Part shown: positions 7,173 to 32,000 of the stretch, one piece after another
Numbering within the stretch: position 1 is the first letter of the stretch
Layout: every line of letters starts with the position of its first letter
From: Promethearchaeota archaeon
GTDB lineage: Archaea; Asgardarchaeota; Hermodarchaeia; Hermodarchaeales; Hermodarchaeaceae
DNA: 32,000 bases
Direction: 5' to 3'
Assembly: GCA_048938295.1 (NCBI GenBank)
Contig: JBHLMI010000011.1
Location: 30,001 to 62,000, forward strand
Made by a program: the position numbers and the translations under genes
Notes under the pieces: generated by a model
The model's input: only the letters and a program-made list of their open reading frames with translations
What the model was told of the DNA's origin: nothing
Databases searched by the model: none

Positions 7173-8021
7173 TCAAGTCGAAGATTTACAGTATTTTTTG
7201 AATAGAGAACTGGCCTCAGCTAAGGTCATAGGGAGTGGCTCGTGACCCATTTGAGGAATAAGTTTCGTGGCATTGTGAAATAGTTGGGTAACTATCGGAG
7301 GGGCTAAGTGTGCATTATCCAGCATTTTCGCATTGGAGAAGATTTCTGCGACAGATCCCGCCCCGATGAATTTGCCTTCATAAAGAACGTAAGCGCGGTC
7401 TGCAATTAATGGGACGATATTGACATCATGTGTAGCGGTGATGATGGTGAGATTGCCTTCTGAATAAAGCTTAGATAAGAACTTGGCAAATTCATTTCGC
7501 GTACGTGGGTCCATATGGGCGGTGGGCTCGTCAAAGACTAGAATTTGGGGGCGCATGGCAAGCACTGATGCGATAGCTGCTCGTTTCTTTTCTCCAACGC
7601 TTAGATGATGCGGAGGCTTTTCCTTTAAATGGCTTAAATCCACCACATTCAATGCTTCGTCGACACGCTGGTTCACCTCTTCGTCTGTAAGCCCCATATT
7701 GAGTGGCCCAAAGGCAATGTCTTCCCAAAGTGTTGGCATGAACAGCTGGTTATCCGGTTCCTGAAAAACTAACCCAATGGCTACCCGAAATTCATGGACA
7801 TTTTTCGCCGTGAGCTCCCTATTGAGAATTTTAATAGTTCCCTTGGTCGCTTCAAGGATTCCACACATTATTGAAAGTAGGGTGGATTTTCCCGCTCCAT
7901 TTGCACCAAGAATTACAGCGCGTTCGTGTAAACCCACTTCAAAATCGATATCTTGTAGGGCAATGTGCCCATCTGGATACCGATATTGCACATTCTTCAT
8001 ATTTACAGCACAATGAACCAT
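7173..8021 (-). CDS. nikO: ECF transporter ATPase NikO/CbiO
   Basis: Walker A GANGAGKST, VFQEPDNQLF, LSVGEKKR, Walker B VFDEPT, and H-loop. Confidence 0.9.
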   Translation of the reverse strand: MVHCAVNMKNVQYRYPDGHIALQDIDFEVGLHERAVILGANGAGKSTLLSIMCGILEATKGTIKILNRELTAKNVHEFRVAIGLVFQEPDNQLFMPTLWEDIAFGPLNMGLTDEEVNQRVDEALNVVDLSHLKEKPPHHLSVGEKKRAAIASVLAMRPQILVFDEPTAHMDPRTRNEFAKFLSKLYSEGNLTIITATHDVNIVPLIADRAYVLYEGKFIGAGSVAEIFSNAKMLDNAHLAPPIVTQLFHNATKLIPQMGHEPLPMTLAEASSLFKKYCKSST

Positions 8022-8023
8022 TT

Positions 8024-8857
8024 CTAAAACCAACCTCCAAACAAGGTAACCGGGAACAGAAGGGGTGCGAAGAAGACAAGAGCGGTGATGCCCAACAGGC
8101 CGATGACAAATCCGTAATCCTTCAGCCCCATTTTCAGATGGGTTAATAGGTGGAACTGTCCCGTAAAGCCTCGGGCGATCATTGTTTGATAGACTCTTTC
8201 TCCCCGTTCATAAGCCCGGATAAAGAGTGTTCCAATCATACTTGATATGGTGCGCCATGTTCGCAATCGGAAAACCCGTTCCTTCTTCACCATTCGGGCT
8301 TCTCGGGCTAGCCCCATGCGATAGGCTTCATCCGTAAAAAGGAAAATGTAACGATACGTGAGGGCTGTTAGTGAAACGAAAAGGCTAGGCAATCGGAGCC
8401 GTTGCATTCCGTGTAGTAAAACTGGAAACCGGGTTGAAAGAGTCAGTAAGCTCAAAGCCGCGACACAGACCCATATGCGCATCCCAAAAATCGCGGCTCG
8501 AAGAAGTCCTTCAACAGTTATCCCTATTAGCCAGGTTCCAAGTGGAATGACAAATATGAGCGTTCCCGGGGTAATGAATGGCAAAGGAATGATAATAATC
8601 ACTGAAAAGATTATCACCATTGATTGACGACTAAAAAACGCTCGCAAGGGGATTCGGGAAGCAACGGCTAGCCCTGTCAAGAACAATAATAGAATCGCAA
8701 ATTGTAGGAGATTTTGCATCAGAACTGTGAAGATGATAACACAAGTTAGTCCAATAAGCTTGACGCGAGGATCAATGCGTTGAAGTAGTCCATTTCGACT
8801 CGCATACTTCTCAATGGCGAGGCTCTCACCCAGCACCTTCAATAATTCTTTAAACAT
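8024..8857 (-). CDS. nikQ: ECF transporter T component NikQ/CbiQ
   Basis: IDPRVKL, TYRYIFLF..EA.RM..AR and LFIRAYERGERVYQTMIARGF motifs. Likely start is ATG 8857. Confidence 0.9.
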   Translation of the reverse strand: MFKELLKVLGESLAIEKYASRNGLLQRIDPRVKLIGLTCVIIFTVLMQNLLQFAILLLFLTGLAVASRIPLRAFFSRQSMVIIFSVIIIIPLPFITPGTLIFVIPLGTWLIGITVEGLLRAAIFGMRIWVCVAALSLLTLSTRFPVLLHGMQRLRLPSLFVSLTALTYRYIFLFTDEAYRMGLAREARMVKKERVFRLRTWRTISSMIGTLFIRAYERGERVYQTMIARGFTGQFHLLTHLKMGLKDYGFVIGLLGITALVFFAPLLFPVTLFGGWF

Positions 8858-8886
8858 ACCCGTTCGATTCCTTCTTGCCACGAATG

Positions 8887-9177
8887 TTATTCTTTTCGTC
8901 GTAACCTGACTAGTAACCACATGAGCCCAAAGGTTATCCCAAGGATGAGCACAACAAAAACCATACCTAACAGGAAATTGGAGAGTAGTACGCCTTCAAG
9001 TCCAGGAATCTCATAATCGGGGAAAAGGGGAATCCATAATTCCCATTCTGGGGCTCCAAACAAGTTGGCAATGACATCAAGGGTTTCGTTTGCAAAACCC
9101 AACCAGATAACTCCAATCGCCACGAATATGATGGCGATGAGAACACCACCCAGCATGAGCTTATATTTTTGGTCCAT
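8887..9177 (-). CDS. nikN: NikN/PDGLE-type auxiliary membrane component
   Basis: Two TM helices flanking a PLFPDYEIPGLEG loop, located between the M and Q genes. SD GGAGGTG precedes ATG 9177. Confidence 0.8.
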   Translation of the reverse strand: MDQKYKLMLGGVLIAIIFVAIGVIWLGFANETLDVIANLFGAPEWELWIPLFPDYEIPGLEGVLLSNFLLGMVFVVLILGITFGLMWLLVRLRRKE

Positions 9178-9179
9178 GG

Positions 9180-9872
9180 TTAGAGCACCTCCTCTAATTT
9201 GGGGCTCCAATCTCCTGTGATGGATGGGACCACACGCTCAATGACCAGAAGGTCAGGACGTACACCATCAATGACCAACAGAATAACTACTGTAGCACCC
9301 CCTTCAATGACTCCGATAACAGAATGATGTACTCCCATCGCAATTAACGCAATGGGGGTTGAGTAGGGGAAGAGGGGATAGGAAAATCCGAGCATAATCG
9401 CAGCAGAAATTGCCGCCAAAAAATCACCAAAAAACGCGGCAGCAAACCCACCGACAATCATGCCTGTGCGGTTGGGTGAGATTCGATAGATCAGAACGAA
9501 GATAACCCAGGGGATAAAAACTCCAACAATACCCATGTTGACGATATTAGCCCCTAGCGTAAGGATGCCTCCGTCGCCAAAGACCAAGGCTTGAATCACC
9601 AGAATAACGGTCATGGAAACAAGTGCCGCATAGGGCCCGAGGGTAATGGCAAGAATAGGTCCTCCTAAGAGGTGGGCGGTTGTTCCGCCAATTATGGGGT
9701 AGTTCATCATTTGGGCAGCAAAAAACATGGCCGTTAAAGTTGCCATCAGTGGGATTTGTTTCTCGTTGAAGTTCCGTTCAAGGCGCCAGAAAGCGAATGC
9801 CAGTAGAATGATCGCAATTGCCCACATGATGGCGGAGAGGAGGATGGTGAGAAAACCGTCCGGGATATGCAT
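9180..9872 (-). CDS. nikM: ECF S component NikM (nickel-type)
   Basis: N-terminus MHIPDG (nickel-type; CbiM typically has MHIMEG), with GGTTAHLLGG and NIVNMG. The start is placed at 9872 so that Met1-His2 can bind metal. Confidence 0.88.
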   Translation of the reverse strand: MHIPDGFLTILLSAIMWAIAIILLAFAFWRLERNFNEKQIPLMATLTAMFFAAQMMNYPIIGGTTAHLLGGPILAITLGPYAALVSMTVILVIQALVFGDGGILTLGANIVNMGIVGVFIPWVIFVLIYRISPNRTGMIVGGFAAAFFGDFLAAISAAIMLGFSYPLFPYSTPIALIAMGVHHSVIGVIEGGATVVILLVIDGVRPDLLVIERVVPSITGDWSPKLEEVL

Positions 9873-9890
9873 GGTCATCTACTTCTCCAA

Positions 9891-18278: not shown

Positions 18279-18683
18279 TTAGTCTTTGAGTGGCATAATT
18301 GTATACTTCACCTGAAGAAGGCCACGCATGGCACGGATCCGACTTATGAACTCGGTTATGTCCTCGGCTTCTCCCTCGGCAATGAATACCTCAAGGCAAT
18401 AGGCTTCACCGAGGTGCAAATGCATGTTACCCGACACAATATGGCTGTAAGCATGACGGAGACGAGTTAATCGCTCATCCACTCCCTGCTGCTCGTGGGT
18501 CGAGATGGCCGTGATGGTGGCCGTAACCCGTCCTCCTTCAAACTTTTCAAGTTCAAATTCAGAAAGTGCGGTACGAACCGCATCTCGAATAGCCTCCGAA
18601 CGACTAGAATAACCCCGTTCCTGCATGAATTGATCCAATTGCTTTAGGAGTTTGGTGGTCAGAGAAATGCTAATAATGGGCAT
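18279..18683 (-). CDS. nikR: NikR family metal-responsive regulator
   Basis: N-terminal ribbon-helix-helix (SRSEAIRDAVR) and the exact Ni-site spacing H-x10-H-x-H-x5-C. SD AGGTGA. Confidence 0.88.
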   Translation of the reverse strand: MPIISISLTTKLLKQLDQFMQERGYSSRSEAIRDAVRTALSEFELEKFEGGRVTATITAISTHEQQGVDERLTRLRHAYSHIVSGNMHLHLGEAYCLEVFIAEGEAEDITEFISRIRAMRGLLQVKYTIMPLKD

Positions 18684-18822: not shown

Positions 18823-20769
18823 GTGCCAGACCAGCGTTACGAAAATGGGAATAATTGCACAGTGTGCGAAGTAGCCTTTGAACCTGCCATTCACAGATCT
18901 TCGTTTTGGCGTGATTACCGGGTTCTCATTATTCTTGTCTCAACTGCGTTGTTTGCCTTGGGACTCATCGTCGATTTCGTCCTGCACCAGCAGCTCATCG
19001 CCTTTGCCCTGTACCTATTTGCGGTGGGTATTGCAGGGTATTCCATTGCTAAAGAGGGAATCAAAGCATTGATCTTCAAGCGACGGCTGAACATCGCCTT
19101 TCTAATGACAATCGCGGCCGTGGCCAGCTTCTTCATTGGACATCCAGCGGAAGGTGCTGCTGTAATGGTGCTGTACTTCATTGCGGAGTTTCTTGAAATT
19201 AAGGCGAATGAGAATGCCCAGCGATCCGTCGCTTCCCTGATGAAGTTGGCACCGGAAACGGCGACTATAAAACGTGATGGCAAAGAATCCCGCGTTCATG
19301 TTCACGAAGTAAACCTCGATGAAATAGTGGTGGTTCGACCCGGTGAAAAAATCCCGTTAGATGGAATCGTTATCCAGGGATCGTCTAGTGTCAATCAAGC
19401 CCCCATTACTGGTGAATCGCTTCCAGTCGAAAAAGAAGCCAATGATGAGGTGTACGCAGGGACCATAAACAATGAAGGCTATCTCGAAATTCGAGTAACC
19501 CGATTATCGAATGAAACCGTGCTTGCCAAGATTTTGACCATGGTTGAGGAGGCGCAAAAATCCAAATCTCCTATTGAACACTTCGTGGACAAGTTTGCGA
19601 AATATTATACACCCTCAGTCGTTGTCGTTGCGGTTGTTGTTGCAACGATTCCATCAATTCTTTTGGGTGCTCTTTGGATAGACTGGATCTATCGAGCCCT
19701 TATTCTTCTGGTAATATCTTGTCCTTGTGCTCTCGCTATCGGAACGCCGGTGGCGATGGTGTCAGCTTTGACGAGTGCAACGAAGCAAGGGGTGCTGATT
19801 AAAGGAAGTCGGTATATCGAAGCATTGGGCAACGTGAAGGTGGTCGCATTCGATAAGACCGGAACCTTGACTTCGGGTCAATTAGCGGTGACCGACGTTA
19901 TTTCCTTTGACGAATCTGACGAATCGGTTCTCCGAGTGGCAGCGTCAATTGAGAGCTTCTCGGAGCACCCAATTAGTAAAGCAATTGTAGCGAAAGCCTT
20001 GAATCCCGGATTACAAGTCAGCGACGTGGATGATTTCACAACTATCACTGGACAAGGCGTCTCGGGCAGAATCGACACCGTACAATATTTTGTTGGAAGT
20101 GAACGGCTTTTCACTAAATTAGCTATCCCGTATCCTAAGAATCAAGTTCGGCATCTAGAGGAAGAAGGAAAAACAGTTATCCTGGTCGGTGATTCAGCGC
20201 GAGCGATTGGCGTAATTGCAATTCAGGATACGATTCGACCCTCCAGTATGAGTACCATTGCAACTCTGAAACAAATGGGGATCAAAACCGTCATGGTGAC
20301 CGGCGATAATGAACACACTGCCGCGTTTATCGCCAAACAAATCGGCATCGATGCGTTCTATGCAAATCTGATGCCTGAAGATAAAGTCAAGATTCTCGAA
20401 GAGTTGCAGCAACATTACGGGGCCATCGCAATGGTGGGAGATGGGGTGAATGATGCCCCCTCGCTAGCCACCGCGGATGTAGGCATTGCGATGGGAGCTA
20501 TTGGAAGTGACGCGGCTATCGAAACCGCCGACATTGCATTAATGCATGATGATCTCGCAAAATTGCCCTATCTATTTGAACTGAGCCAAAAAACGCGAAG
20601 TATTGTTCGTCAAAATATCGGAACCGCATTAATTGTAAAATTTAGTCTGGCCGCTCTGGTCTTCCCGGGCTTAATCACTCTCTGGTTGGCGGTAGCCATC
20701 GGAGATATGGGCTTATCTTTAGCAGTTATACTCAACGCGATGCGACTTTCCCGAGTAAGAGCTGAATGA
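18823..20769 (+). CDS. Heavy-metal P1B-type ATPase (P1B-2, Zn/Cd/Pb ZntA/CadA-like)
   Basis: TGES, SCPCAL, DKTGTLT, SEHP, TGDN and GDGVNDAP. Lys and DMG in the last two TM helices are the P1B-2 signature. A short CxxC N-terminus replaces an HMA domain. Confidence 0.92.
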   Translation: MPDQRYENGNNCTVCEVAFEPAIHRSSFWRDYRVLIILVSTALFALGLIVDFVLHQQLIAFALYLFAVGIAGYSIAKEGIKALIFKRRLNIAFLMTIAAVASFFIGHPAEGAAVMVLYFIAEFLEIKANENAQRSVASLMKLAPETATIKRDGKESRVHVHEVNLDEIVVVRPGEKIPLDGIVIQGSSSVNQAPITGESLPVEKEANDEVYAGTINNEGYLEIRVTRLSNETVLAKILTMVEEAQKSKSPIEHFVDKFAKYYTPSVVVVAVVVATIPSILLGALWIDWIYRALILLVISCPCALAIGTPVAMVSALTSATKQGVLIKGSRYIEALGNVKVVAFDKTGTLTSGQLAVTDVISFDESDESVLRVAASIESFSEHPISKAIVAKALNPGLQVSDVDDFTTITGQGVSGRIDTVQYFVGSERLFTKLAIPYPKNQVRHLEEEGKTVILVGDSARAIGVIAIQDTIRPSSMSTIATLKQMGIKTVMVTGDNEHTAAFIAKQIGIDAFYANLMPEDKVKILEELQQHYGAIAMVGDGVNDAPSLATADVGIAMGAIGSDAAIETADIALMHDDLAKLPYLFELSQKTRSIVRQNIGTALIVKFSLAALVFPGLITLWLAVAIGDMGLSLAVILNAMRLSRVRAE

Positions 20770-23602: not shown

Positions 23603-24349
23603 TTATTCGAACAGGGTGGTGTCCAGGCTTGCTTTTAATTCGCTAATTATCTCTTTTACAGTGGCTTCCCGCAGATTCAACACTTCAGAAATACGTCTTA
23701 TGCTGTCGTCATGGGAATCAATGGCATGGTGCAAGACGCGGCGGGCATCGGGGCTATCAATTTGCTGCACCATCTTGCGGGTTTCTTTCATCACGCTGTT
23801 TCGAATGTAAAGGAGAACCAGTTTTTCTTCTTCGAGGTAATCGAGGTGTTCATCTATATCTGTTAGAATCTCTGCTAAGTGATCGATTTTCCTCTCTTCT
23901 TTAGGATATTTGAAAAGTTCCTTCACTCGATTCAGGAAGGCTGCTGCCTTTTCAGAAAGGGTTTCTTGGTCTGGCTCTACATCAAAGGCTATTACTTTCT
24001 CTTTGAAGAGATGTGGACCGATGTTCACCATGATAGCGAGGCTCTTGTTTAAGAAGTAGATTCGCCGTTTGGGTCCTTGAGGGCTTGTTTCTTTAGCAGA
24101 CTCAACGAGCTGTGCCTTTTCCATGATTTTAAGATGTTTGGCGACAAGTTGTTGACTTAAATTGAGGTCTTTGGCAAGCTGGAGAGGGTAATTGGGTTCT
24201 TGGCTTAAACGTTGGATAACTAGTCGGCGAATGGGGCTGTCTAAAATTCGCAAAATTGAATCGAGCTCGGTATCGCGTCTCGGTTTGACTCCAGTTTCCT
24301 TTCCTTTTTTGGAAGTTGATACAATCTTTTTTTTGCTCTTACTATTCAT
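23603..24349 (-). CDS. ArsR-type winged-HTH heat-shock repressor (Phr/HSR1-like)
   Basis: ILDSPIRR...LSQEPNYPLQLA..L...VAKHL..ME and GPKRRIY motifs, with a C-terminal coiled region. Adjacent to hsp20. Confidence 0.8.
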   Translation of the reverse strand: MNSKSKKKIVSTSKKGKETGVKPRRDTELDSILRILDSPIRRLVIQRLSQEPNYPLQLAKDLNLSQQLVAKHLKIMEKAQLVESAKETSPQGPKRRIYFLNKSLAIMVNIGPHLFKEKVIAFDVEPDQETLSEKAAAFLNRVKELFKYPKEERKIDHLAEILTDIDEHLDYLEEEKLVLLYIRNSVMKETRKMVQQIDSPDARRVLHHAIDSHDDSIRRISEVLNLREATVKEIISELKASLDTTLFE

Positions 24350-24445: not shown

Positions 24446-26140
24446 TCACGCTGTAACAACCTCAATTTTGAGTTTGGGTTTACTAATCACTTCACGTTGT
24501 TCTTTGAGGATGTTTCGGGCAATGTCTAAGGCTGTTTCATCATCGTAGACGCCTTGAGCGTTTTTCCGTGCTTCTTGGAGCATCTGACGCTGCACCTTGA
24601 GTTTCAAATCCCCAATGGTCAACGCACCAATACCATAGTTTTCAGGAATTAGCTCACGAAAATCATCTGTAGGAGTTAGAGATTCGATTCCACTTGGAGG
24701 TACAGCATTTACATCCAATAGAATTTTTGTCCCTAAAACAGATTGCAGCTGTTCGAGTGATACTAATTGAATACCCGGAGAGCCAACAGCGAAAATAAGG
24801 TTAGCATCCTCTAGAAGTTCATGAAGGTCATCAGGTGAAGTTGATTGCACGCCTTCCACTTTATTACTCTCGATTGAGGCCCGGTGCGCTACTTCTCTGG
24901 CCCGGTCAATATTTCGTGAGGTTAATACTGTCAGCGCTCCACTCTTGGAAAGTAAATGAGCCACACTTTCTCCAACTGGTCCTGTACCTGCAAGAACTAA
25001 CGCAATGTTACTTTTGAGTGAACCTTGGTTAAGTCTGCGCAGAGCTTCCTCAGCTTTGGCAACCATAGCCGCCGCCGTGGAAAATGCACCGTGTGGATCA
25101 ATAATTACTGCCGTTTCGAAAGGTTTCACCATGGCCTTTTGAATTCTGTCTGCCATTTGACGAGCAAGGGAAACCTGACGTCCTCCAACAAAGAAGCAAA
25201 GATGCTTTACTCCCTTGGTTCCCCTTGAAAAGATAGCATCTTGGACTAAGTCTTGAATCCGATCAAGCGACACTCCAGAATATGGAACTACAACATCAAA
25301 TCCTGCGTCGTACGCTACACAGATATCAAACGGGCTAGCGTGGTCATCCGCTTCTAGGAAAAAAAGAATGTCACTTAGTTTTGTTTTTGGGCGCTTAATC
25401 ACTGGCACAACAGAAACCGAAGAAACTCCTGTGAGCTCCGTCATGCCTTTCATTTCCTCTTTTGGCACTTCTGAAAGAATTCGTTTGAAGCTTATAGGGA
25501 CCACATCTACCTCCAAGGATTGCAAAAGTTCCATTAAACCTTGGAAATGTCTGGGGCTGCTCAAGTGAAACGTGGTTATTCGCTTCTTCTTAAGAAGTTC
25601 AGCTTGTTGTAAAATCCCCATAGTAATCCAGCTTTCACGGATTCCAAATTGTACTTGTCTAATTTCCTCTTCAAGTTCATCGTGCAAGTACTGACCATAG
25701 GCGACAAGCCGATCTATTTTGTCTTGCACACTTGGAGTTATTTTTTCATCTGATAGGATTCTTAACCCGTCTAAGACCTCATTGCGCTTTTCCAGTTTCA
25801 ACTTGATACTCCGTGAGAGGTATGAGTGAGCGAACTCGTCCATTTCAACCGCATAAAAAGGGATCTTTAATTTTGAGAATACATCCGCTACTGGGTTGTC
25901 TTCACGGAATTCCTTCAAGCTCCGCAGACCCAATTCATCGGTGGCAAAATCTGGTGACTCTGATTCAGCAATCTGCTTGATCATATCGCAATAAGCCATT
26001 GAAGGGCGTTTTATTGCAGAAATCTTCGATTCAGATTCAGAAGGAGGGGAATGAATGAGCCAAGGTTCGTCATAGGCCTTTCTAATTAGGAAGACCCGCA
26101 ATTTTTTCCCACTTAAAGGGGCAAGCTCTAACGTTTTCAA
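24446..26140 (-). CDS. mtd: NAD(P)-dependent methylene-H4MPT/H4F dehydrogenase (MtdA/MtdB-type) fused to an N-terminal ~220 aa domain
   Basis: The C-terminal ~310 aa carry SPFDICVAYDAG, QDAIFSRG, TAAAMVAK, LAGTGPVG, DVNAVPP.GI and GIGALTIGDLK. SD AGGTGA precedes the TTG start. Confidence 0.85.
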   Translation of the reverse strand: MKTLELAPLSGKKLRVFLIRKAYDEPWLIHSPPSESESKISAIKRPSMAYCDMIKQIAESESPDFATDELGLRSLKEFREDNPVADVFSKLKIPFYAVEMDEFAHSYLSRSIKLKLEKRNEVLDGLRILSDEKITPSVQDKIDRLVAYGQYLHDELEEEIRQVQFGIRESWITMGILQQAELLKKKRITTFHLSSPRHFQGLMELLQSLEVDVVPISFKRILSEVPKEEMKGMTELTGVSSVSVVPVIKRPKTKLSDILFFLEADDHASPFDICVAYDAGFDVVVPYSGVSLDRIQDLVQDAIFSRGTKGVKHLCFFVGGRQVSLARQMADRIQKAMVKPFETAVIIDPHGAFSTAAAMVAKAEEALRRLNQGSLKSNIALVLAGTGPVGESVAHLLSKSGALTVLTSRNIDRAREVAHRASIESNKVEGVQSTSPDDLHELLEDANLIFAVGSPGIQLVSLEQLQSVLGTKILLDVNAVPPSGIESLTPTDDFRELIPENYGIGALTIGDLKLKVQRQMLQEARKNAQGVYDDETALDIARNILKEQREVISKPKLKIEVVTA

Positions 26141-26296
26141 TTAATCACCTGCCTATATTAGGCAGTTAAGGCTTCTTCCCATCTGAGAAAAAGGCGATGA
26201 AAATTTATTTTAGATGAAAAAAGACAATTTTTATAGTCAAGCTCGTTGCCCAAGGCAAATTGTGAACTAGATCGGGGCAGATATCTTAAGTTCAAA

Positions 26297-27640
26297 TCAT
26301 GTTTTTCGTTCTCCAGCTTCTCTAAATCTATAATCTGTATGAGCTGCACAAGAAACGCAGGGATCAAAACATCGAACAGCCATCATAGCCCGTTCAAGGA
26401 TTTTTTCATTTGGCCAACCAAGATTTATGCAAGCACTCATGACGTTTTGTACAATCACCGCTATCGCACGGGCATTAAGCTCTGTTGGCACTCGAATGTC
26501 GATATCTTTGATTCTGTTGCTACTATTTGTACTTACTCGGTAAAGGAGAATTCCCCGTGGAGCTTCAACTGCACTAGCTCCGATTCTAGTTCCTGGTGTC
26601 AACCCAATTGAAGAGTCTTCATCTTTCGACCATTCTGTTTCCAACAGGTTGATTGCATTTGTGAGAGCGAATTCCATTTCGTCAATTCGAAGAAGCCCGG
26701 TTTGGAACAGGTTAGGCACTCCTATGTACGATTTCTTACTTTTCGTTGGCTTAGACTGAAGTACAGCTAGTCGGGCATAAGGCCCCGCTAAGAGATTCTT
26801 GGATTCGTCGTTTGATTTGATGTAGACAACTTTTGTGGGGGCATCTAACAGGTCCTGCTCCACTAAGTATTCAGAGAAATCATCACAGGCAACGGTTTCA
26901 TGTGTTCCATCATCAGAAATGAAATGGACCTGATTAAGACCAGAAAACCGGTTGGCCTTTGTTTCAAAGGAGCTAATATAAAGTGGAAGAGGAAGTGCAT
27001 AGTGTTGGATTTCCTCTTCGATTTCATCTAGTAGCGAATTGTAGTATTCTTTAGTCCATTTCACTCCCGAGAGCGTTGAAGAAAGTTGTTGGATAAGATC
27101 TTGCTGTTGAGTGCTATTGATGTTTTGAACGACTCCACCTGGAATCAGGTTAAAGGCTAAATTAGTATTACCTGCTGTTGCGGTGATTAACGCTTCTGCA
27201 CACTCGTATAATTTTGTAGCAATTGGTAGAACTCGTGGTTGCATGCGATCAATGCCAAGGATGTCTTGTCGAGAGATTTGGTTTGTAAGATACATCAAAT
27301 CAGCCAAAGTAGAAAAGAACACACTATATGTGTGCGATCGGATGATTTCTCCCAAGAGCGCCAGTTCGCGGATTAACTCGGCAATTGGGGGAATTGATAC
27401 ATCTGTAGTCGATTCAATTGCTTTTATTGCTCCTATTCTATGGGCAACTGGACAAATTCCACAGATCCGCGGAACAATTTTTGGTAAGTCATTAATGTGT
27501 TGTCCAATTAGAACGTTCAAAAAGTCCCGTGCCGTTGGCATGTTATATACAACATTTGTTATGCGATCTTTGTCTCGCGTTACAATGAGCTTGCTTTCGC
27601 CTTCTATCCGTGTCATTGGTAAGGATAGTCGAATTTTCAT
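26297..27640 (-). CDS. mvhA: Group 3 [NiFe]-hydrogenase large subunit (MvhA-like)
   Basis: L1 RICGICPVAH, L2 DPCVSCAAH plus a 13 aa cleavable extension, EAPRG and VPT..N. ATGA overlap with the small-subunit gene. Confidence 0.88.
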   Translation of the reverse strand: MKIRLSLPMTRIEGESKLIVTRDKDRITNVVYNMPTARDFLNVLIGQHINDLPKIVPRICGICPVAHRIGAIKAIESTTDVSIPPIAELIRELALLGEIIRSHTYSVFFSTLADLMYLTNQISRQDILGIDRMQPRVLPIATKLYECAEALITATAGNTNLAFNLIPGGVVQNINSTQQQDLIQQLSSTLSGVKWTKEYYNSLLDEIEEEIQHYALPLPLYISSFETKANRFSGLNQVHFISDDGTHETVACDDFSEYLVEQDLLDAPTKVVYIKSNDESKNLLAGPYARLAVLQSKPTKSKKSYIGVPNLFQTGLLRIDEMEFALTNAINLLETEWSKDEDSSIGLTPGTRIGASAVEAPRGILLYRVSTNSSNRIKDIDIRVPTELNARAIAVIVQNVMSACINLGWPNEKILERAMMAVRCFDPCVSCAAHTDYRFREAGERKT

Positions 27641-28371
27641 TGTTTAAACTTCAGCTCCGGTTTTTGATATCTAAAAGCGAGAGCCGCATACTTACGAATG
27701 GCGTCGCTGACTTTTATGAGAGAGAAGAAATTAGCGAGAGTCGAGGGTAGATTCCGGTCTATGGCACCCATACAGCCATCACAGGGAGTGGCTCCCTTAA
27801 TACAAAGGGCTTCACACCCTGCACGGGTTATTGGGCCTAAACAGAGTATTCCCTCGCGTAAAAAACAGCTTTGGGGAGGGCGTACGTTATGTAAGGACGT
27901 TATCTCAACATCAAATGCTTGATCTTGGGCAAACGGGCATTCTCCACACACGTTTTTGTCAGGGAGTTCGATTTCAGAACCATCAATTGCGCTCATCAAC
28001 AGATTTCCAAGTAACTTTCGTGGTGGCGGACAGCCAGGTAATGACATGTATAAGTCAACGAATTTACTGATGGGATCTATACGCATGTTGGGGGATTGGC
28101 TCATTATTCCACCGAGAACGGCACAGCTTCCCAAAGCGATGATTTTGGTTCCTGCGGTCCATAGTCTTCGAAGAAGTTCCGCGTCTTCATCTCGAGTGAC
28201 TCCACCTTCTACAAATGCGATATCTAAATCCGTGTCAACTTGAACATCAGAGATTAATCGAAACACACGAATATCAACTGATTTAAGGAGTTCAGGGAAT
28301 AGGGCGCTACCAAGTATGGCAAACATACACCCGCTACAGGAGTTTAGTTGAAGAAAACCAATCTTAGTCAT
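27637..28371 (-). CDS. mvhG: Group 3 [NiFe]-hydrogenase small subunit (MvhG/HydD-like)
   Basis: SCSGC, VEGG, GSC, PGCPP, VCGECP and CLGPITRAGCEALC...PCDGCMG. TAATG overlap with the upstream gene. Confidence 0.88.
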   Translation of the reverse strand: MTKIGFLQLNSCSGCMFAILGSALFPELLKSVDIRVFRLISDVQVDTDLDIAFVEGGVTRDEDAELLRRLWTAGTKIIALGSCAVLGGIMSQSPNMRIDPISKFVDLYMSLPGCPPPRKLLGNLLMSAIDGSEIELPDKNVCGECPFAQDQAFDVEITSLHNVRPPQSCFLREGILCLGPITRAGCEALCIKGATPCDGCMGAIDRNLPSTLANFFSLIKVSDAIRKYAALAFRYQKPELKFKQ

Positions 28372-30899
28372 TAGCCTAATAGCTCCTCTAATTCAGTGGA
28401 AAATTGATTGACCTGGTTCGCGAACACGTGACCTTCAACGGCTGACACATTCAATACGCGTACACGTTTTTGTAGTTCGTCTCCATAAAAATCTGCGAGA
28501 ACACCAATTCGTGTCTGAGCCTTCTTGATACCCTCAAAGAACCGGCAAGCTGTTTCATGACAGCCAACAACCATAACACCATCAAATCCGTGGTTTAACG
28601 CTGTTATTACATAATTTGCATCGATTGAACCCGCGCATGGCAGTCTAATGACCATTGCACCAGGATCATAGTCCAGTCGACGAATGCCTGCATTATCCAC
28701 TGCCGGGTATCCACATGAGTTGCAGGAAAACACAATTATTCGGGGGGAGGCTGTGCTCATTGAGAGGGCATTCATTGCAGCTTGAACCTCCTCCTGAATT
28801 GGAGGGGAAGCCAGAGCTCCGGTTGGGCATATTGCGATGCAGGCTCCACAGCCTTCACATTTTAGCGTATCGATACGAAGTGTGTCAGCTATGATGGCGA
28901 GAGCGTTAAAGGGACAGGACTCTACACAGAGATTACAAAGCCCACATTTTTCTTGATTAATTTGAATTGGTATGTCCCCTGCAGGGAGGCTATCTTTTCC
29001 TAATAGAAGAAGAACTTCTAATGCGGTATCTCGAGAATCTGCTACTAAGTCGGCATAAGCTTTAGGACCAGTTATAGACCCACAAGCCCAAATACCTGAG
29101 GATAAGCTCTTTGGGTCAATGAAACCTCGTCTATCCAAGGAAAAATTCGTCATACTACGAAGGGTTAGCTGTTGGTCTCCTGGCGTCATACCCATATTGA
29201 GAACAATAAGATCTGCTGGGAATGAATTTGAATCAGTTTGGATTAAGCGTTTATGCCCCCGATGAATGATCTTAATGCTTTCACAAAAGTGAATATGAGA
29301 ATATTCTGGGATGAAGGTGCTTCGATCAGGGGGAATTAAGGCTATCTGGTAAAGGACATTGATGGAAGTATTGGGCGCCTTTTTTTCTACAATCTCTAGG
29401 TATTTGAGCGCGAGGTTACAGCAGTAGTTTGAACAAGCCTTGGTTCGGTTCTGACATTGAAGAACAATTATGGAACGGGCAGGTTGGCCGGTTGTTGGGC
29501 AGATTATATTGCCTCCTGTTGGTCCATCAGGCGCTAGCATACGTTCAAATTCGGATGAAGTGATAATATCCTTAGCAGGGTTATATTGAATTGCTCCTTG
29601 AGATGGCAAGGTTTTAGGATCGCATACTTCTGCGCCTGTTGCAAGAATTATGGCACCAACCGTGAACTTCTTGGTTACAGGTTCTTGATCAAGATTAATC
29701 GCTTTAGATGGGCATGCTTTTTCGCATTTTCGGCATGTCCGGCAAAAATCAATATCCTCCTGTTCAATGACGGGTCTACTAGGATATGCGGCAGGGCAAG
29801 GCACATGGATGAGTTTACGTTGGCTAATATGGTACTCAAATGCATCTGGACGAGACTCAGGACACGTATCGACACAAGAGCCGCACATTATGCATTTTGA
29901 TAAATCGACATATCGGGGCTGTTGCAGAGCAGTAATCTCATAATTGCCAATTGTTCCTGAAATATCGGAGAGTTCGGTATTAGTAAGAATTCGTATGTTC
30001 CCTGAAAGCATAACTGAGGATACATCCTCAGCAATCATACATGGACCACAATCGATAGCCCCATAGATGCTTTCCCATCGCCGCGCGATTCCACCTAGAC
30101 ATGACTCTTTCTCTAGCAGAATAATGGAATAGTTGGATTGAGCCAAAACCTTGGCAACCTCTACTCCAGCTAGTCCACCACCAATGATGGCGGCACTTTT
30201 CCGAATTGGTAACGTACGCTTTGGAATTGAGACCCGATGCCGGAGCATCTCAGCGCTGGCCCGTATTAGAAGTAACGCTTTTTCTGTGGCTTGCTCGGGT
30301 TTATTTCTATGAACCCAAGCACAATGTTCACGTATGTTCGCGAATTCAATGGGTATATCCAATTGCATTCGAATAGCGGTAAACATTTGGCTGTGAAGGT
30401 GAGGGGAGCAGGCTGCAATTACAAGATTATTCAGAAAATACCGATCACACCATGCTTTTAGTTTCTCAACGTTTTCTAACAAACATAAATGCTGAAACAC
30501 CATTGTACGTTCAACATATGGCAGATCATTGACTTTCTCCATAAGCTCCCCGACATTAATGGCTTGATGAATTTCCTCCCCACAAGAACAGACAATTACG
30601 CCAATACGGAAAATTGCTCCTCGTGAATCCGCTTCGCTCAGATCGATTGCCTCTCCGGCCATCAATTGTTCCTTGGCGGTCATTAGGCGGATTGCATTTG
30701 TTCCTGCGGCGGAAAGTTGATAGAAGCCATTCCGTTTCTCTATGAACCCCTCCAGTTTTTTGAGATGATAATTGAAGAGACCTGTTTTCGTGAGCCCTAA
30801 TCTTTTCATCAAATCATTATAGGTGATTAGTCGTTCAGCGTCTAATATTCGAAGAATTTGTTCGCGGAGTGGATGGGCCAAAGCCGCATATACATTCAT
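28371..30899 (-). CDS. hdrA: Winged-HTH - HdrA - MvhD fusion protein
   Basis: Residues 1-75 are wHTH-like (HPLREQILRIL...FNYHLKKL...YQLS..G). HdrA motifs follow: CSCG, AACSP, NIREHCAWVH, GGGLAG, DCGPC, two ferredoxin pairs, EFERML and CSNYCC...K. The C-terminus is MvhD-like (CNSCGY, RLPCAG, GCH...CRF). Confidence 0.9.
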   Translation of the reverse strand: MNVYAALAHPLREQILRILDAERLITYNDLMKRLGLTKTGLFNYHLKKLEGFIEKRNGFYQLSAAGTNAIRLMTAKEQLMAGEAIDLSEADSRGAIFRIGVIVCSCGEEIHQAINVGELMEKVNDLPYVERTMVFQHLCLLENVEKLKAWCDRYFLNNLVIAACSPHLHSQMFTAIRMQLDIPIEFANIREHCAWVHRNKPEQATEKALLLIRASAEMLRHRVSIPKRTLPIRKSAAIIGGGLAGVEVAKVLAQSNYSIILLEKESCLGGIARRWESIYGAIDCGPCMIAEDVSSVMLSGNIRILTNTELSDISGTIGNYEITALQQPRYVDLSKCIMCGSCVDTCPESRPDAFEYHISQRKLIHVPCPAAYPSRPVIEQEDIDFCRTCRKCEKACPSKAINLDQEPVTKKFTVGAIILATGAEVCDPKTLPSQGAIQYNPAKDIITSSEFERMLAPDGPTGGNIICPTTGQPARSIIVLQCQNRTKACSNYCCNLALKYLEIVEKKAPNTSINVLYQIALIPPDRSTFIPEYSHIHFCESIKIIHRGHKRLIQTDSNSFPADLIVLNMGMTPGDQQLTLRSMTNFSLDRRGFIDPKSLSSGIWACGSITGPKAYADLVADSRDTALEVLLLLGKDSLPAGDIPIQINQEKCGLCNLCVESCPFNALAIIADTLRIDTLKCEGCGACIAICPTGALASPPIQEEVQAAMNALSMSTASPRIIVFSCNSCGYPAVDNAGIRRLDYDPGAMVIRLPCAGSIDANYVITALNHGFDGVMVVGCHETACRFFEGIKKAQTRIGVLADFYGDELQKRVRVLNVSAVEGHVFANQVNQFSTELEELLG

Positions 30900-30973
30900 C
30901 TTGGGGTCCTTCTCGTGATTTCTGTGGAGAAATACCTTAGATAACTCTAATTGTCAAGAAACATAACTTAGAC

Positions 30974-31004
30974 AAAAAAGCTTGCCCTGTTTAAAAAGGC
31001 AAGC
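30974..31004 (-). terminator. Stem-loop plus T6 run (terminator of the zinc-finger gene, or an operator flanking the hdrA TATA box)
   Basis: Minus strand GCTTGCC-N11-GGCAAGC-TTTTTT. The loop contains TTTTTAAA. Confidence 0.45.
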
Positions 31005-31041
31005 AATGGCTGCAACTATTCTTGCTACTTCTGATGAGAAA

Positions 31042-31272
31042 TTACATCTTTTTACTCTCAGAAGTAGGAATGGGAGCACGATAGCGCGTTTGATAGCAAT
31101 TGCGGCAAATGTAGCGAGGCATAACGTTAAGCGCACCACACCATGGGCATTTCCAAAAATCGATCGTTGTTAGTGTCACATCGGCCTCACGTCGGATATA
31201 ACGACAATGCTGGCATAAACGTAAATGAATAAAATTTGATACTCCACATTTCGGACACGTCCAATACTTCAA
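31042..31272 (-). CDS. Small protein with two RanBP2/NZF-type zinc fingers
   Basis: WTCPKCGVSNFIHLRLCQHC and WKCPWCGALNVMPRYICRNC both fit W-x-C-x2-C-x3-N-x6-C-x2-C exactly. Likely start is TTG 31272 after GGGGTG; the ORF is open to 31287. Confidence 0.82.
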   Translation of the reverse strand: MKYWTCPKCGVSNFIHLRLCQHCRYIRREADVTLTTIDFWKCPWCGALNVMPRYICRNCYQTRYRAPIPTSESKKM

Positions 31273-31580
31273 ATTCCACCACCCCACGAGGATCTCTTAT
31301 TGCTACTTTCTCATTAAATCTCCTAAGTTGTGCTATAGGATGCGCGGGTTTCATAGCGACTCTATATTGATTTCAGCCGAATCTTCACATCCTAGCATAT
31401 AGTAGGAGGGAACGAAAAAACAAAAACACTCTGAAAAACATCATTTCCAAAGTGTGACAAATAATTTTATCTTGAGCTTGTTGTCAATCTTGACAAACGC
31501 TTTCCAAATATCAGCAGAAACGCGATTCTGTGATGGTTTTTCGTAGTATTATGAAAATTAAGCTTTCATAGTGTTAGACT

Positions 31581-31907
31581 TCATTTTATTTGTTCAAGTT
31601 TCTCTAGCATTTGTTGGCGATATCGTTCTAAAGCGGTTTTCCCCTCATCAGAGAGTTGGATGAGCGTGTGGGGAATTTTATCAACGAATTCTTTGGTGAT
31701 CCTAACATAGCCGACGGTTTCCAGTTTGCTGAGATGAGAAGAGAGATTACCGCGCGTGAGGCCCGTGCGGCGTAAGATGAACAGGAAATCTGCACTCTCG
31801 ACTTCTTTGAGAATGGTGAGGATTTTCAGACGTGCTGGCGAATGGACAATAGGATCAACATCCTCATCCTCGATGGAAGAGAATGGGGGGGAGTTAGAGG
31901 AGGGCAT
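31581..31907 (-). CDS. Winged-HTH transcriptional regulator (MarR-like/HTH_34-type)
   Basis: DPIVHSPARL.IL..L, TGLTRGNLSSHLSKLE..GYV and LS.EG motifs. SD AGGTGA precedes ATG 31907. Confidence 0.88.
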   Translation of the reverse strand: MPSSNSPPFSSIEDEDVDPIVHSPARLKILTILKEVESADFLFILRRTGLTRGNLSSHLSKLETVGYVRITKEFVDKIPHTLIQLSDEGKTALERYRQQMLEKLEQIK

Positions 31908-32000
31908 GGGGCGTCTCACCTTCAATGGACTCGGTGTGTTCGACTGGATAGTGGTGCAGGAATCGGAGAAACAGGATAGTGCCGAATAAGAGAGCGAGGA
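31894..32000 (-). CDS. C-terminal fragment of a probable membrane protein, truncated by the window edge
   Basis: Open frame LALLFGTILFLRFLHHYPVEHTESIEGETPHALL-stop, overlapping the start of the regulator gene. Confidence 0.5.
   Translation of the reverse strand, partial: LALLFGTILFLRFLHHYPVEHTESIEGETPHALL

What the first reader, a model, noticed from the sequence alone, without database searches (positions are those of the whole stretch)
26297..30899. Candidate new system: translationally coupled wHTH-HdrA-MvhD / MvhG / MvhA complex with no HdrBC
Seen: three genes joined by TAATG and ATGA overlaps, implying stoichiometric synthesis, and no hdrB, hdrC or other acceptor module in the window. 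Known: MvhADG-HdrABC bifurcates electrons from H2 to ferredoxin and heterodisulfide, while known H2 sensors (HupUV/HoxBC) signal through separate kinases. Inference: a soluble hydrogenase-flavoprotein complex that carries its own DNA-binding domain, i.e. a possible one-component H2/redox-sensing transcription factor. Alternatively it is an orphan bifurcating module whose high-potential partner is unknown, with the adjacent Mtd fusion as a candidate.
Basis: partly seen in the sequence, partly recalled or inferred. Interest (0 to 1): 0.78.

Follow-up and report, generated by a model that had tools for sequence, protein, structure and literature searches.

The report
Asgard hydrogenase carrying its own DNA-binding domain
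A hydrogen-metabolising enzyme module found in many Asgard archaea has an ArsR-type DNA-binding domain fused to its flavoprotein subunit, and a matching 18-base palindrome sits in front of its own genes and of a co-inherited C1-pathway gene, so the enzyme probably controls its own genes, which can now be tested directly.

Summary
Three minus-strand genes (28371-30899, 27637-28371, 26297-27640) encode wHTH-HdrA-MvhD, MvhG and MvhA, joined by TAATG and ATGA overlaps. No hdrB or hdrC lies on the contig.

- The fusion is not an oddity. About 115-120 of 400 Asgard genomes carry it, with an invariant recognition helix.
- All Fe-S, FAD and Ni-Fe ligands are kept, so this looks like a working enzyme rather than a degenerate sensor.
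- "No HdrBC" holds for the cassette only. The genome has six CCG-domain (HdrB-like) loci and several other HdrA copies elsewhere.

New here:
- A fourth gene (24446-26140), an unknown N-domain fused to the NADP-dependent dehydrogenase MtdA, is syntenic in several lineages and co-inherited within the genus.
- An 18-bp palindrome, TGAYAA-N6-TTRTCA, lies upstream of wHTH-hdrA in 20 of 34 loci and in 0 of 19 paralogue controls. It also lies upstream of the MtdA-fusion gene. It is otherwise rare: in three near-complete genomes, 2 of 3, 3 of 4 and 2 of 7 perfect sites fall at this locus.

Best reading: a trigger enzyme that regulates its own operon and the mtdA-fusion gene. DNA binding and any H2 or redox dependence remain untested.

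The scan had noted this stretch before, but only on this same genome.

The parts
28371..30899 (-). wHTH-HdrA-MvhD fusion (P0001, 842 aa). It has an ArsR-type wHTH at residues 3-80, a flexible linker at 81-97, an HdrA flavo-Fe-S core at 98-710 and an MvhD [2Fe-2S] domain at 714-840.
   Evidence: Pfam and NCBIfam. PDB: HdrA 8rvu/5odc at E 1e-91 over residues 98-709, and MvhD 5odc_D at E 1e-19. ArsR 1y0u at E 1.5e-3 for residues 6-58. AF2 mean pLDDT 87.3, with a low-confidence linker at 88-94. All cluster cysteines and GxGxxG are invariant in 35 homologues.
27637..28371 (-). MvhG-like [NiFe] hydrogenase small subunit (P0002, 244 aa), with 12 cysteines placed for three Fe-S clusters.
   Evidence: Oxidored_q6 at 2e-16 and VhuG at 4e-35. 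Sequence. 1-nt overlap with P0001.
26297..27640 (-). MvhA-like [NiFe] hydrogenase large subunit (P0003, 447 aa). It has RxCGxC and DPCxxC motifs and a 13-residue C-terminal extension after the His of the DPCxxCxxH motif.
   Evidence: Best solved relative is MvhA 5odc_F at E 1.7e-35 over residues 4-435. 4-nt overlap with P0002.
24446..26140 (-). Fourth gene of the cassette (P0004, 564 aa). An uncharacterised N-domain (about 13-222) and a disordered linker (223-255) precede a full-length NADP-type methylene-H4MPT dehydrogenase, MtdA (258-544).
   Evidence: MtdA 1lu9/6tlk at E 1e-40. Z 37.5, rmsd 2.2 over 287 residues. TMt 0.90. AF2 pLDDT 79. Syntenic in L024, L026, L027 and L028. Co-inherited within the genus.
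30939..30956 (.). Candidate operator O1. It reads TGACAATTAGAGTTATCT on the gene strand (11/12 to TGAYAA-N6-TTRTCA) and lies 40 nt upstream of the P0001 ATG. It sits inside the roughly 75-nt gap between a terminator-like hairpin and the start codon.
   Evidence: Sites of 11/12 or 12/12 occur at the same place in genus relatives L033-L037.
26222..26239 (.). Candidate operator O2. It reads TGACTATAAAAATTGTCT on the gene strand (10/12) and lies 82 nt upstream of the P0004 TTG start.
   Evidence: Perfect 12/12 sites occupy the same mvhA-to-mtdA gap in L026, L027 and L028, and two 11/12 sites in L024.
31455..31472 (.). Candidate operator O3, TGACAAATAATTTTATCT (11/12), about 170 nt upstream of the small zinc-ribbon gene.
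   Evidence: Equivalent 11/12 sites occur in L033, L034 and L035.
31042..31287 (-). 81-aa double zinc-ribbon protein gene. It lies directly upstream of the cassette, in the same orientation, and is conserved there within the genus only.
   Evidence: Weak zinc-ribbon Pfam hits. tblastn at 65-92% identity at the same position in L033-L036 and L024.
30977..31006 (-). Terminator-like hairpin (GCTTGCC-N11-GGCAAGC followed by T6) after the zinc-ribbon gene. It confines the hdrA promoter to about 75 nt.
   Evidence: Read directly from the sequence. No terminator program was run for archaea.

Best explanation
The cassette encodes a cytoplasmic, group-3c-like [NiFe] hydrogenase (MvhA and MvhG) wired through a fused MvhD domain to an HdrA flavo-Fe-S protein. 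By homology, this is a working electron-transfer or flavin-based bifurcating (or confurcating) module. Its HdrA subunit also carries an ArsR-type winged helix on a roughly 15-residue flexible tether. I infer that two such domains, brought together by the HdrA dimer, bind the 18-bp palindrome TGAYAA-N6-TTRTCA. That palindrome overlaps the core promoter of the enzyme's own operon and also precedes the co-inherited gene for an N-domain-MtdA fusion, an NADP-linked methylene-H4MPT dehydrogenase. On this reading the enzyme is a 'trigger enzyme': it feeds back on its own synthesis and on an NADP-linked branch point of the H4MPT C1 pathway. Shown here: the domain architecture, intact cofactor ligands, conservation of the fusion, synteny and co-inheritance with the MtdA fusion, and the existence and locus specificity of the palindrome. 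Inferred: that the wHTH is the protein that binds the palindrome, and that binding represses. Speculative: that binding depends on H2, on the redox state of the FAD and Fe-S clusters, or on assembly state; the nature of the second electron acceptor; and whether the MtdA fusion docks physically.
For: 1. The fusion is real and conserved. 26 clusters at 58-86% identity and representatives at 38-41% identity all cover residue 1 onwards. About 115-120 of 400 Asgard genomes match residues 1-240. The start codon is conserved in 37 loci.
2. The wHTH has ArsR topology (AF2). Its best solved relatives are ArsR proteins. The recognition helix is invariant (T39 G40 N43 H45 L46), while the linker varies.
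3. The enzyme is intact. It aligns over the full length of solved HdrA and MvhD, and all cluster cysteines are invariant. The MvhA Ni-Fe motifs are present.
4. The palindrome scores at least 11/12 within 200 nt upstream in 20 of 34 non-redundant loci, 11 of them perfect, with variable spacers. GACAA-N6-TTGTC is the top exact palindrome in an unbiased enumeration. None of 19 upstream regions of wHTH-less hdrA paralogues reaches 11/12. All 24 perfect sites in 220 kb of fetched loci lie upstream of either the hdrA operon or the MtdA-fusion gene.
5. In near-complete genomes, 2 of 3 (G187), 3 of 4 (G188) and 2 of 7 (G148) perfect sites fall at this locus. A genome lacking the fusion has none.
6. 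No other DNA-binding gene is conserved in the neighbourhoods, whose flanks all differ.
7. The MtdA fusion is adjacent in four lineages. Within the genus it is present in 5 of 5 genomes that have wHTH-HdrA and absent in 5 of 5 that lack it.
Against: - No binding experiment or DNA-protein model exists.
- I noticed the motif by eye in these same sequences before testing it.
- 14 of 34 loci have no site of 11/12 or better within 200 nt. Some of these sit behind an frhB-like gene whose upstream region does carry perfect sites (L030; probably L059 and L060).
- The clade with the most divergent wHTH (f28, G307) has no perfect site.
- The window's own O2 site scores only 10/12.
- Related genomes are not independent, so the counts overstate the number of events.
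- An abundant enzyme of about 170 kDa per protomer is an unusual transcription factor.
- The genome has three other DUF7347 proteins that could bind similar sites. One 11/12 site lies beside the C17 copy.
- MtdA has no Fe-S cluster or flavin, so no obvious electron path links it to HdrA.
Confidence: 0.55

Rival explanations
1. The wHTH does not bind DNA. It is a structural, dimerisation or docking module of the hydrogenase-HdrA complex, for example for a partner such as the MtdA-fusion N-domain. A separate transcription factor encoded elsewhere binds the palindrome.
For: Winged helices often mediate protein contacts in archaea and eukaryotes (general knowledge). The genome has three other DUF7347 copies, and one 11/12 site lies next to the C17 DUF7347-RDD gene. 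14 of 34 loci lack a strong site near the start codon.
Against: The most conserved residues lie in the ArsR-type recognition helix. The domain hangs on a variable, low-confidence tether rather than being packed into the core. The palindrome tracks the wHTH-bearing paralogue specifically, at 20 of 34 loci against 0 of 19 controls. No other regulator gene is conserved nearby.
Confidence: 0.2
2. The module is a dedicated H2 or redox sensor with little metabolic turnover: a one-component regulatory hydrogenase. Its only output is transcription of its own operon and of the mtdA-fusion gene.
For: The cassette has no acceptor module with Fe-S clusters. MvhA is divergent, scoring 116 bits against the VhuA cut-off of 800. 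The motif-defined regulon is very small.
Against: The full complement of six-plus Fe-S sites, FAD and both ferredoxin domains is conserved, as in catalytic HdrA. The large subunit keeps a C-terminal extension, unlike known sensor hydrogenases (the comparison with sensors is from general knowledge). In other clades the same core sits with FrhB-like, HdrCB-like or NuoEF-like modules, which fits a working redox enzyme.
Confidence: 0.12
3. The wHTH binds the operator only in unassembled or cofactor-free HdrA. This gives assembly-state feedback that matches subunit synthesis to Ni, Fe-S and flavin supply, with no H2 sensing.
For: The operator overlaps the only place available for the hdrA core promoter. 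The three genes are translationally coupled. NikR and a CbiMNQO-type transporter lie in the same window.
Against: This does not explain why the separately transcribed mtdA-fusion gene carries the same site. No data distinguish it from redox control.
Confidence: 0.13

Closest known systems
MvhAGD-HdrABC of methanogens (group 3c [NiFe] hydrogenase:heterodisulfide reductase; PDB 5odc, 8rvu)
   Same: MvhA, MvhG, MvhD and HdrA are all present and align over their full lengths with cofactor ligands kept. HdrA-MvhD fusions in Asgard genomes are already noted in the literature (PMC11237513).
   Different: No HdrB or HdrC is in the cassette. MvhD is fused to the C-terminus of HdrA. HdrA has an extra N-terminal ArsR-type wHTH. 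The cassette is linked to an MtdA fusion instead of a heterodisulfide-reducing module.
Trigger enzymes with a fused DNA-binding domain (PutA, BirA, NadR)
   Same: An intact enzyme and a DNA-binding domain share one polypeptide, and an operator sits at the enzyme's own promoter. PutA is also a flavoenzyme (general knowledge).
   Different: The enzyme here is a multi-subunit hydrogenase and flavo-Fe-S complex. The DNA-binding fold is ArsR-type rather than RHH or BirA-type. Binding and switching are not shown.
Regulatory [NiFe] hydrogenases HupUV/HoxBC with HoxJ/HoxA (group 2b)
   Same: A hydrogenase would be coupled to transcription of hydrogen-related genes.
   Different: Those signal through a separate kinase and response regulator. 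Here there is no kinase, the large subunit is group-3c-like with a C-terminal extension, and the DNA-binding domain is on the flavoprotein.
HdrR, the wHTH activator of hdrBCA in Methanosarcina barkeri (PMC11218639)
   Same: A winged-helix regulator acts on a palindrome in an hdr operon promoter.
   Different: HdrR is a separate protein. Here the wHTH is part of HdrA itself.
MtdA of Methylorubrum extorquens (PDB 1lu9, 6tlk)
   Same: The C-terminal 290 residues of P0004 are a full-length homologue (E 1e-40, Z 37.5, 32% identity) with the GTGPVG Rossmann motif.
   Different: A conserved N-terminal domain of about 220 residues with no Pfam family is fused on. The gene is tied to a hydrogenase cassette, in a genome that also has F420-dependent Mtd.

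Membership tests
MvhADG-HdrABC (group 3c hydrogenase:heterodisulfide reductase) | [NiFe] large subunit with RxCGxC and DPCxxC cysteine pairs, closest to MvhA | tested here: met
   RICGIC and DPCVSC are present. Best solved relative is MvhA 5odc_F at E 1.7e-35. The score is far below the NCBIfam VhuA cut-off, so it is divergent.
MvhADG-HdrABC (group 3c hydrogenase:heterodisulfide reductase) | HdrA with FAD site and Fe-S cysteines, plus the MvhD [2Fe-2S] adaptor | tested here: met
   Full-length alignment to 8rvu/5odc HdrA and to MvhD. Cysteines and glycines are invariant in A3.
MvhADG-HdrABC (group 3c hydrogenase:heterodisulfide reductase) | HdrB (two CCG domains, catalytic site) and HdrC encoded with or bound to the complex | tested here: not met
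   No CCG match lies on contig C66. CCG genes lie on C5, C7, C22, C23, C43 and C51, next to other hdrA copies. MtdA-type cassettes in relatives also lack them. Binding in trans is not testable here.
ArsR/SmtB-type winged-helix transcription factors | a1-a2-a3-aR-b-b-a5 fold with a conserved recognition helix | tested here: met
   DUF7347 at 1.5e-13 and HTH_20. ArsR 1y0u at E 1.5e-3. AF2 secondary structure over residues 3-80. Invariant T39 G40 N43 H45 L46.
ArsR/SmtB-type winged-helix transcription factors | Palindromic operator at or near the regulator's own promoter | tested here: met
   TGAYAA-N6-TTRTCA in 20 of 34 loci, against 0 of 19 controls, and locus-specific genome-wide.
ArsR/SmtB-type winged-helix transcription factors | Demonstrated DNA binding by the domain | not testable with these tools
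   Needs EMSA, footprinting or a protein-DNA structure.
ArsR/SmtB-type winged-helix transcription factors | Own metal or ligand sensing site (Cys/His at a3N or a5) | tested here: not met
   There is no cysteine in residues 1-97. Any signal would have to come from the fused enzyme.
Regulatory (sensor) [NiFe] hydrogenases, group 2b | Group 2b large subunit without a C-terminal extension, signalling to a histidine kinase | tested here: not met
   13 residues follow the His of the DPCxxCxxH motif. The nearest relatives are group 3 enzymes. No kinase was found among the window ORFs scanned.
MtdA (NADP-dependent methylene-H4MPT/H4F dehydrogenase) | Full-length MtdA fold with an NADP-type Rossmann motif | tested here: met
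   E 1e-40 to 1lu9. Z 37.5, rmsd 2.2, 287 residues aligned. GTGPVG and TSR are conserved. Substrate and cofactor specificity are not testable here.
TraB/GumN/ChaN-like fold (lead for the P0004 N-domain) | Sequence or fold match to PF01963 | tested here: inconclusive
   No Pfam hit even at E 5 in eight homologues. The Atlas feature score is only 0.76. The domain was not folded or searched alone, and whole-model searches were filled by the MtdA half.

The most novel reading that the evidence does not exclude
A one-component hydrogen sensor-enzyme. H2 turnover at MvhA sets the redox state of the HdrA flavin and Fe-S chain, and this controls DNA binding by the wHTH fused to HdrA. Many Asgard archaea would then gate their own hydrogenase, and an NADP-linked step of the H4MPT C1 pathway, directly by H2 availability, without a kinase or a separate regulator.
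Probability: 0.25. Interest if true: 0.9.

Novelty: new variant of a known kind. Interest (0 to 1): 0.72.

Why it matters
Hydrogen exchange is central to current models of Asgard physiology and of the origin of eukaryotes, yet nothing is known about how these archaea regulate hydrogen metabolism. This work gives a defined protein domain, a defined 18-bp operator and a small predicted regulon (the hydrogenase operon and an NADP-linked methylene-H4MPT dehydrogenase), conserved across many Asgard lineages. The idea can therefore be tested with recombinant protein and short DNA duplexes, without a culture. If binding holds and responds to H2 or redox state, it would be the first hydrogenase complex that is itself a transcription factor. 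It would also be a new member of the small class of trigger enzymes. The MtdA fusion also points to an undescribed link between an HdrA-type hydrogenase and NADP(H)/H4MPT chemistry.

Tried and rejected
- **Complex prediction.** P0001 residues 1-715 with the P0004 N-domain (1-230) gave no verdict (score 0.00). This is no evidence either way.
- **Expression.** No RNA holder is listed among public runs; only sediment-metagenome DNA runs hold the stretch. I therefore did not lay reads.
- **P0004 N-domain.** There is no Pfam family at E up to 5 in eight homologues. The nearest Atlas clusters are unnamed Asgard proteins of 205-243 aa, and TraB/GumN scores only 0.76. Foldseek, VIA-wide and Atlas searches of the whole model were filled by the MtdA half, so the N-domain fold remains untested.
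- **Rex-type operator.** The half-site orientation differs from the Rex consensus as I recall it, and no Rex N-terminal domain is found in this 91.6%-complete genome.
- **Wider regulon in G000.** There are only three perfect sites, two of them inside ORFs. The other intergenic 11/12 sites lie next to unrelated genes (aminotransferase, DUF362, DAP dehydrogenase, DUF7347-RDD). The count of sites scoring 11/12 or better (36) is close to the reversed-pattern control (26).
- **Stand-alone close homologues of the wHTH.** Only one truncated fragment of the same fusion was found.
- **Literature.** Searches for the HdrA-wHTH fusion, DUF7347, and MtdA in Asgard found nothing describing this.
- **Degenerate sensor.** I rejected this reading because all cofactor ligands are conserved.


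Full report
**What is there.** On the minus strand of the window lie three genes: 28371-30899 (P0001, 842 aa), 27637-28371 (P0002, 244 aa) and 26297-27640 (P0003, 447 aa). Read on the coding strand, the junctions are GGCTAATGACT and AACAATGAAAA.

- **P0001** has an N-terminal DUF7347/HTH_20 winged helix (residues 3-71). An HdrA body follows; the NCBIfam HdrA profiles align from residue 98. It ends in a C-terminal FlpD/MvhD domain (721-840).
- **P0002** is an MvhG/VhuG-type small subunit.
- **P0003** is a [NiFe] large subunit with RICGIC and DPCVSC motifs. Its best solved relative is MvhA.
- No CCG-domain gene lies on the contig.

**Is the enzyme intact?**
- P0001 residues 98-709 align end to end with solved HdrA (8rvu, 5odc; E about 1e-91), and residues 714-840 align with MvhD.
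- In an alignment of 35 HdrA-MvhD proteins with and without the wHTH, every cluster cysteine and the GxGxxG motif are invariant or nearly so.
- An earlier scan note said the second flavin-binding half is eroded. The local divergences it lists are visible in the alignment, but the ligands and overall length are kept.
- I therefore read this as a working redox module, not a degenerate one.

**Is the fusion real and conserved?**
- The start codon sits at the homologous position in 37 loci.
- 26 clusters at 58-86% identity, and representatives at 38-41% identity, all begin with the wHTH.
- In 400 genomes of the phylum, roughly 115-120 have a match covering residues 1-240. The distribution within families is patchy, for example 6 of 19 in the window's own family.
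- Source names on close hits are Hodarchaeota, Hermodarchaeota, Thorarchaeota and Promethearchaeota, so this is an Asgard genome.
- The wHTH alignment has invariant L7 H9 P10 R12 I15 Y27 T39 G40 N43 H45 L46 Y60 L62 G66. The segment 83-97 varies.
- The AF2 model (pLDDT 87.3) gives ArsR/SmtB topology for residues 3-80 and a low-confidence tether at 81-97.
- The only solved sequence relatives of the domain are ArsR proteins.
- There is no cysteine in residues 1-97, so the domain has no sensing site of its own.

**Genomic context.**
- The neighbourhoods of relatives differ completely outside a four-gene block: wHTH-HdrA-MvhD, MvhG, MvhA, and a protein of about 565 aa with an Mpt_N domain.
- In the window that fourth protein is P0004 (24446-26140). 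Residues 258-544 are a full-length homologue of NADP-dependent MtdA: E 1e-40; Z 37.5 at rmsd 2.2 over 287 residues; TMt 0.90.
- Residues 13-222 form a conserved folded domain with no Pfam family.
- Within the genus, five genomes with the wHTH fusion all have the MtdA fusion on the same contig. Five genomes without it (75-88% complete) have no MtdA homologue at all. These genomes are close kin, so this may reflect a single gain or loss.
- The genome also has Mch, Ftr and the F420-dependent Mtd. The cassette therefore adds a second, NADP-linked methylene-H4MPT dehydrogenase rather than filling a gap.
- More distant clades keep the wHTH core but change the company:
  - one has an FrhB-like gene upstream, an HdrCB-like fusion and a double HdrA-MvhD downstream, and the MtdA fusion a few kb away;
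  - another has NuoE/F/G-like genes upstream and no MtdA.
- The genome itself has six CCG loci and several other hdrA and [NiFe] loci. "No HdrBC" therefore describes the cassette, not the organism.

**The palindrome.** I aligned the regions upstream of the conserved start by eye and saw TGAYAA-N6-TTRTCA. I then tested it.

| Test | Result |
|---|---|
| 34 non-redundant upstream regions, 200 nt each | 20 score at least 11/12, 11 are perfect; each p ≤ 0.017 against a first-order Markov null; spacers differ, half-sites are kept |
| Unbiased count of exact k-mer palindromes at all spacings | GACAA-N6-TTGTC ranks first |
| 19 upstream regions of wHTH-less hdrA paralogues, same phylum, similar GC | none reaches 11/12 |
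| 220 kb of fetched loci | all 24 perfect sites lie upstream of the wHTH-hdrA operon or of the MtdA-fusion gene |
| Genome-wide perfect sites, G187 | 3 sites, 2 at this locus |
| Genome-wide perfect sites, G188 | 4 sites, 3 at this locus (one before the MtdA-fusion operon) |
| Genome-wide perfect sites, G148 | 7 sites, 2 in the divergent gap between the two operons |
| Complete genome lacking both genes (G116) | no site |

- In L026, L027 and L028 the perfect sites sit in the mvhA-to-mtdA gap. In L030 they lie upstream of the frhB-like gene and of the mtdA operon.
- In the window the three best intergenic sites are O1 at 30939-30956 (11/12), O3 at 31455-31472 (11/12) and O2 at 26222-26239 (10/12). 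They lie before hdrA, before a genus-specific zinc-ribbon gene, and before P0004.
- O1 sits in the roughly 75 nt between a terminator-like hairpin (30977-31006) and the ATG at 30899. It must therefore overlap the core promoter.

**Reading.**
- The conserved recognition helix, the conserved palindrome, their exclusive association and the absence of any other conserved regulator gene make the wHTH the obvious binder. A palindrome also fits a domain presented in pairs by a dimeric HdrA; dimerisation is inferred from the solved complexes.
- This makes the complex a trigger enzyme in the sense of PutA or BirA.
- What signal, if any, modulates binding is unknown. H2 or redox state, assembly state and partner binding are all open.
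- The physiological acceptors are also open. MtdA carries no Fe-S cluster or flavin, so I treat it as a co-regulated partner, not a proven subunit. A complex prediction gave no verdict.

**Limits.**
- I found the motif by eye in the sequences I later tested.
- Related genomes are not independent.
- 14 of 34 loci lack a strong nearby site. Some of these have it further upstream, behind an extra gene.
- The most divergent clade (f28) has no perfect site and a slightly different helix.
- Three other DUF7347 proteins exist in the genome.
- There is no expression data.
- I found no paper describing an HdrA-wHTH fusion or this operator in the library searched. A paper on archaeal fusions notes HdrA-MvhD fusions in Asgard genomes but no HTH.

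**Verdict.** The transcription-factor idea now rests on a concrete operator that can be tested. The H2-sensing part remains speculative, and the "no HdrBC" claim applies to the locus only. I rate this a new variant of known kinds (an Mvh/HdrA-type hydrogenase combined with a trigger enzyme), of high interest for Asgard hydrogen physiology.

Noticed in passing
window 7173-9878, 18279-18683, 18823-20769: A CbiM/CbiQ/ABC-ATPase (Ni/Co uptake type) transporter, a NikR-family regulator and a P-type ATPase lie in the same window as the [NiFe] hydrogenase cassette. This could be a local nickel-supply context.
   Followed up: no
window 31042-31287 and 31455-31472: An 81-aa double zinc-ribbon protein gene is conserved directly upstream of the cassette within the genus only. 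It has its own operator-like site about 170 nt upstream.
   Followed up: partly
window 26149-26165: A perfect hairpin, CTGCCTA-ATA-TAGGCAG, lies in the leader of P0004. Its 3' arm runs into the GGTGA Shine-Dalgarno-like sequence before the TTG start. It may control translation.
   Followed up: no
G000:C51:20423-22387 (outside the window): Another hdrA copy has an in-frame TGA (and one TAA within the match) and is followed by mvhD and a [NiFe] large subunit. It may be a selenocysteine HdrA, as described for Asgard selenoproteomes (PMC11227280, title only).
   Followed up: no
G000:C17:35222-35968 (L073:1222-1968): A second DUF7347 wHTH is fused to an RDD membrane domain. An 11/12 match to the same palindrome lies just downstream, 48 nt before an unannotated 478-aa gene.
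   Followed up: partly
window 23603-24349 and 31581-32000: Two further winged-helix regulator genes (HTH_5, 248 aa; HTH_34) flank the cassette here. They are not conserved next to it in other lineages.
   Followed up: partly
protein P0272: A 96%-identical copy of P0004 is labelled 'Candidatus Bathyarchaeota archaeon' by its source, whereas other close hits are labelled as Asgard lineages. The label is probably a binning or taxonomy error. Atlas clusters of the same fusion are also mostly labelled Bathyarchaeota.
   Followed up: no
G148:C8:261986-267115: One Loki-type genome has two MtdA-fusion paralogues and a stand-alone copy of the N-domain (233 aa) in a row, divergent from wHTH-hdrA. L030 likewise has a 213-aa gene directly before the MtdA fusion.
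   Followed up: no
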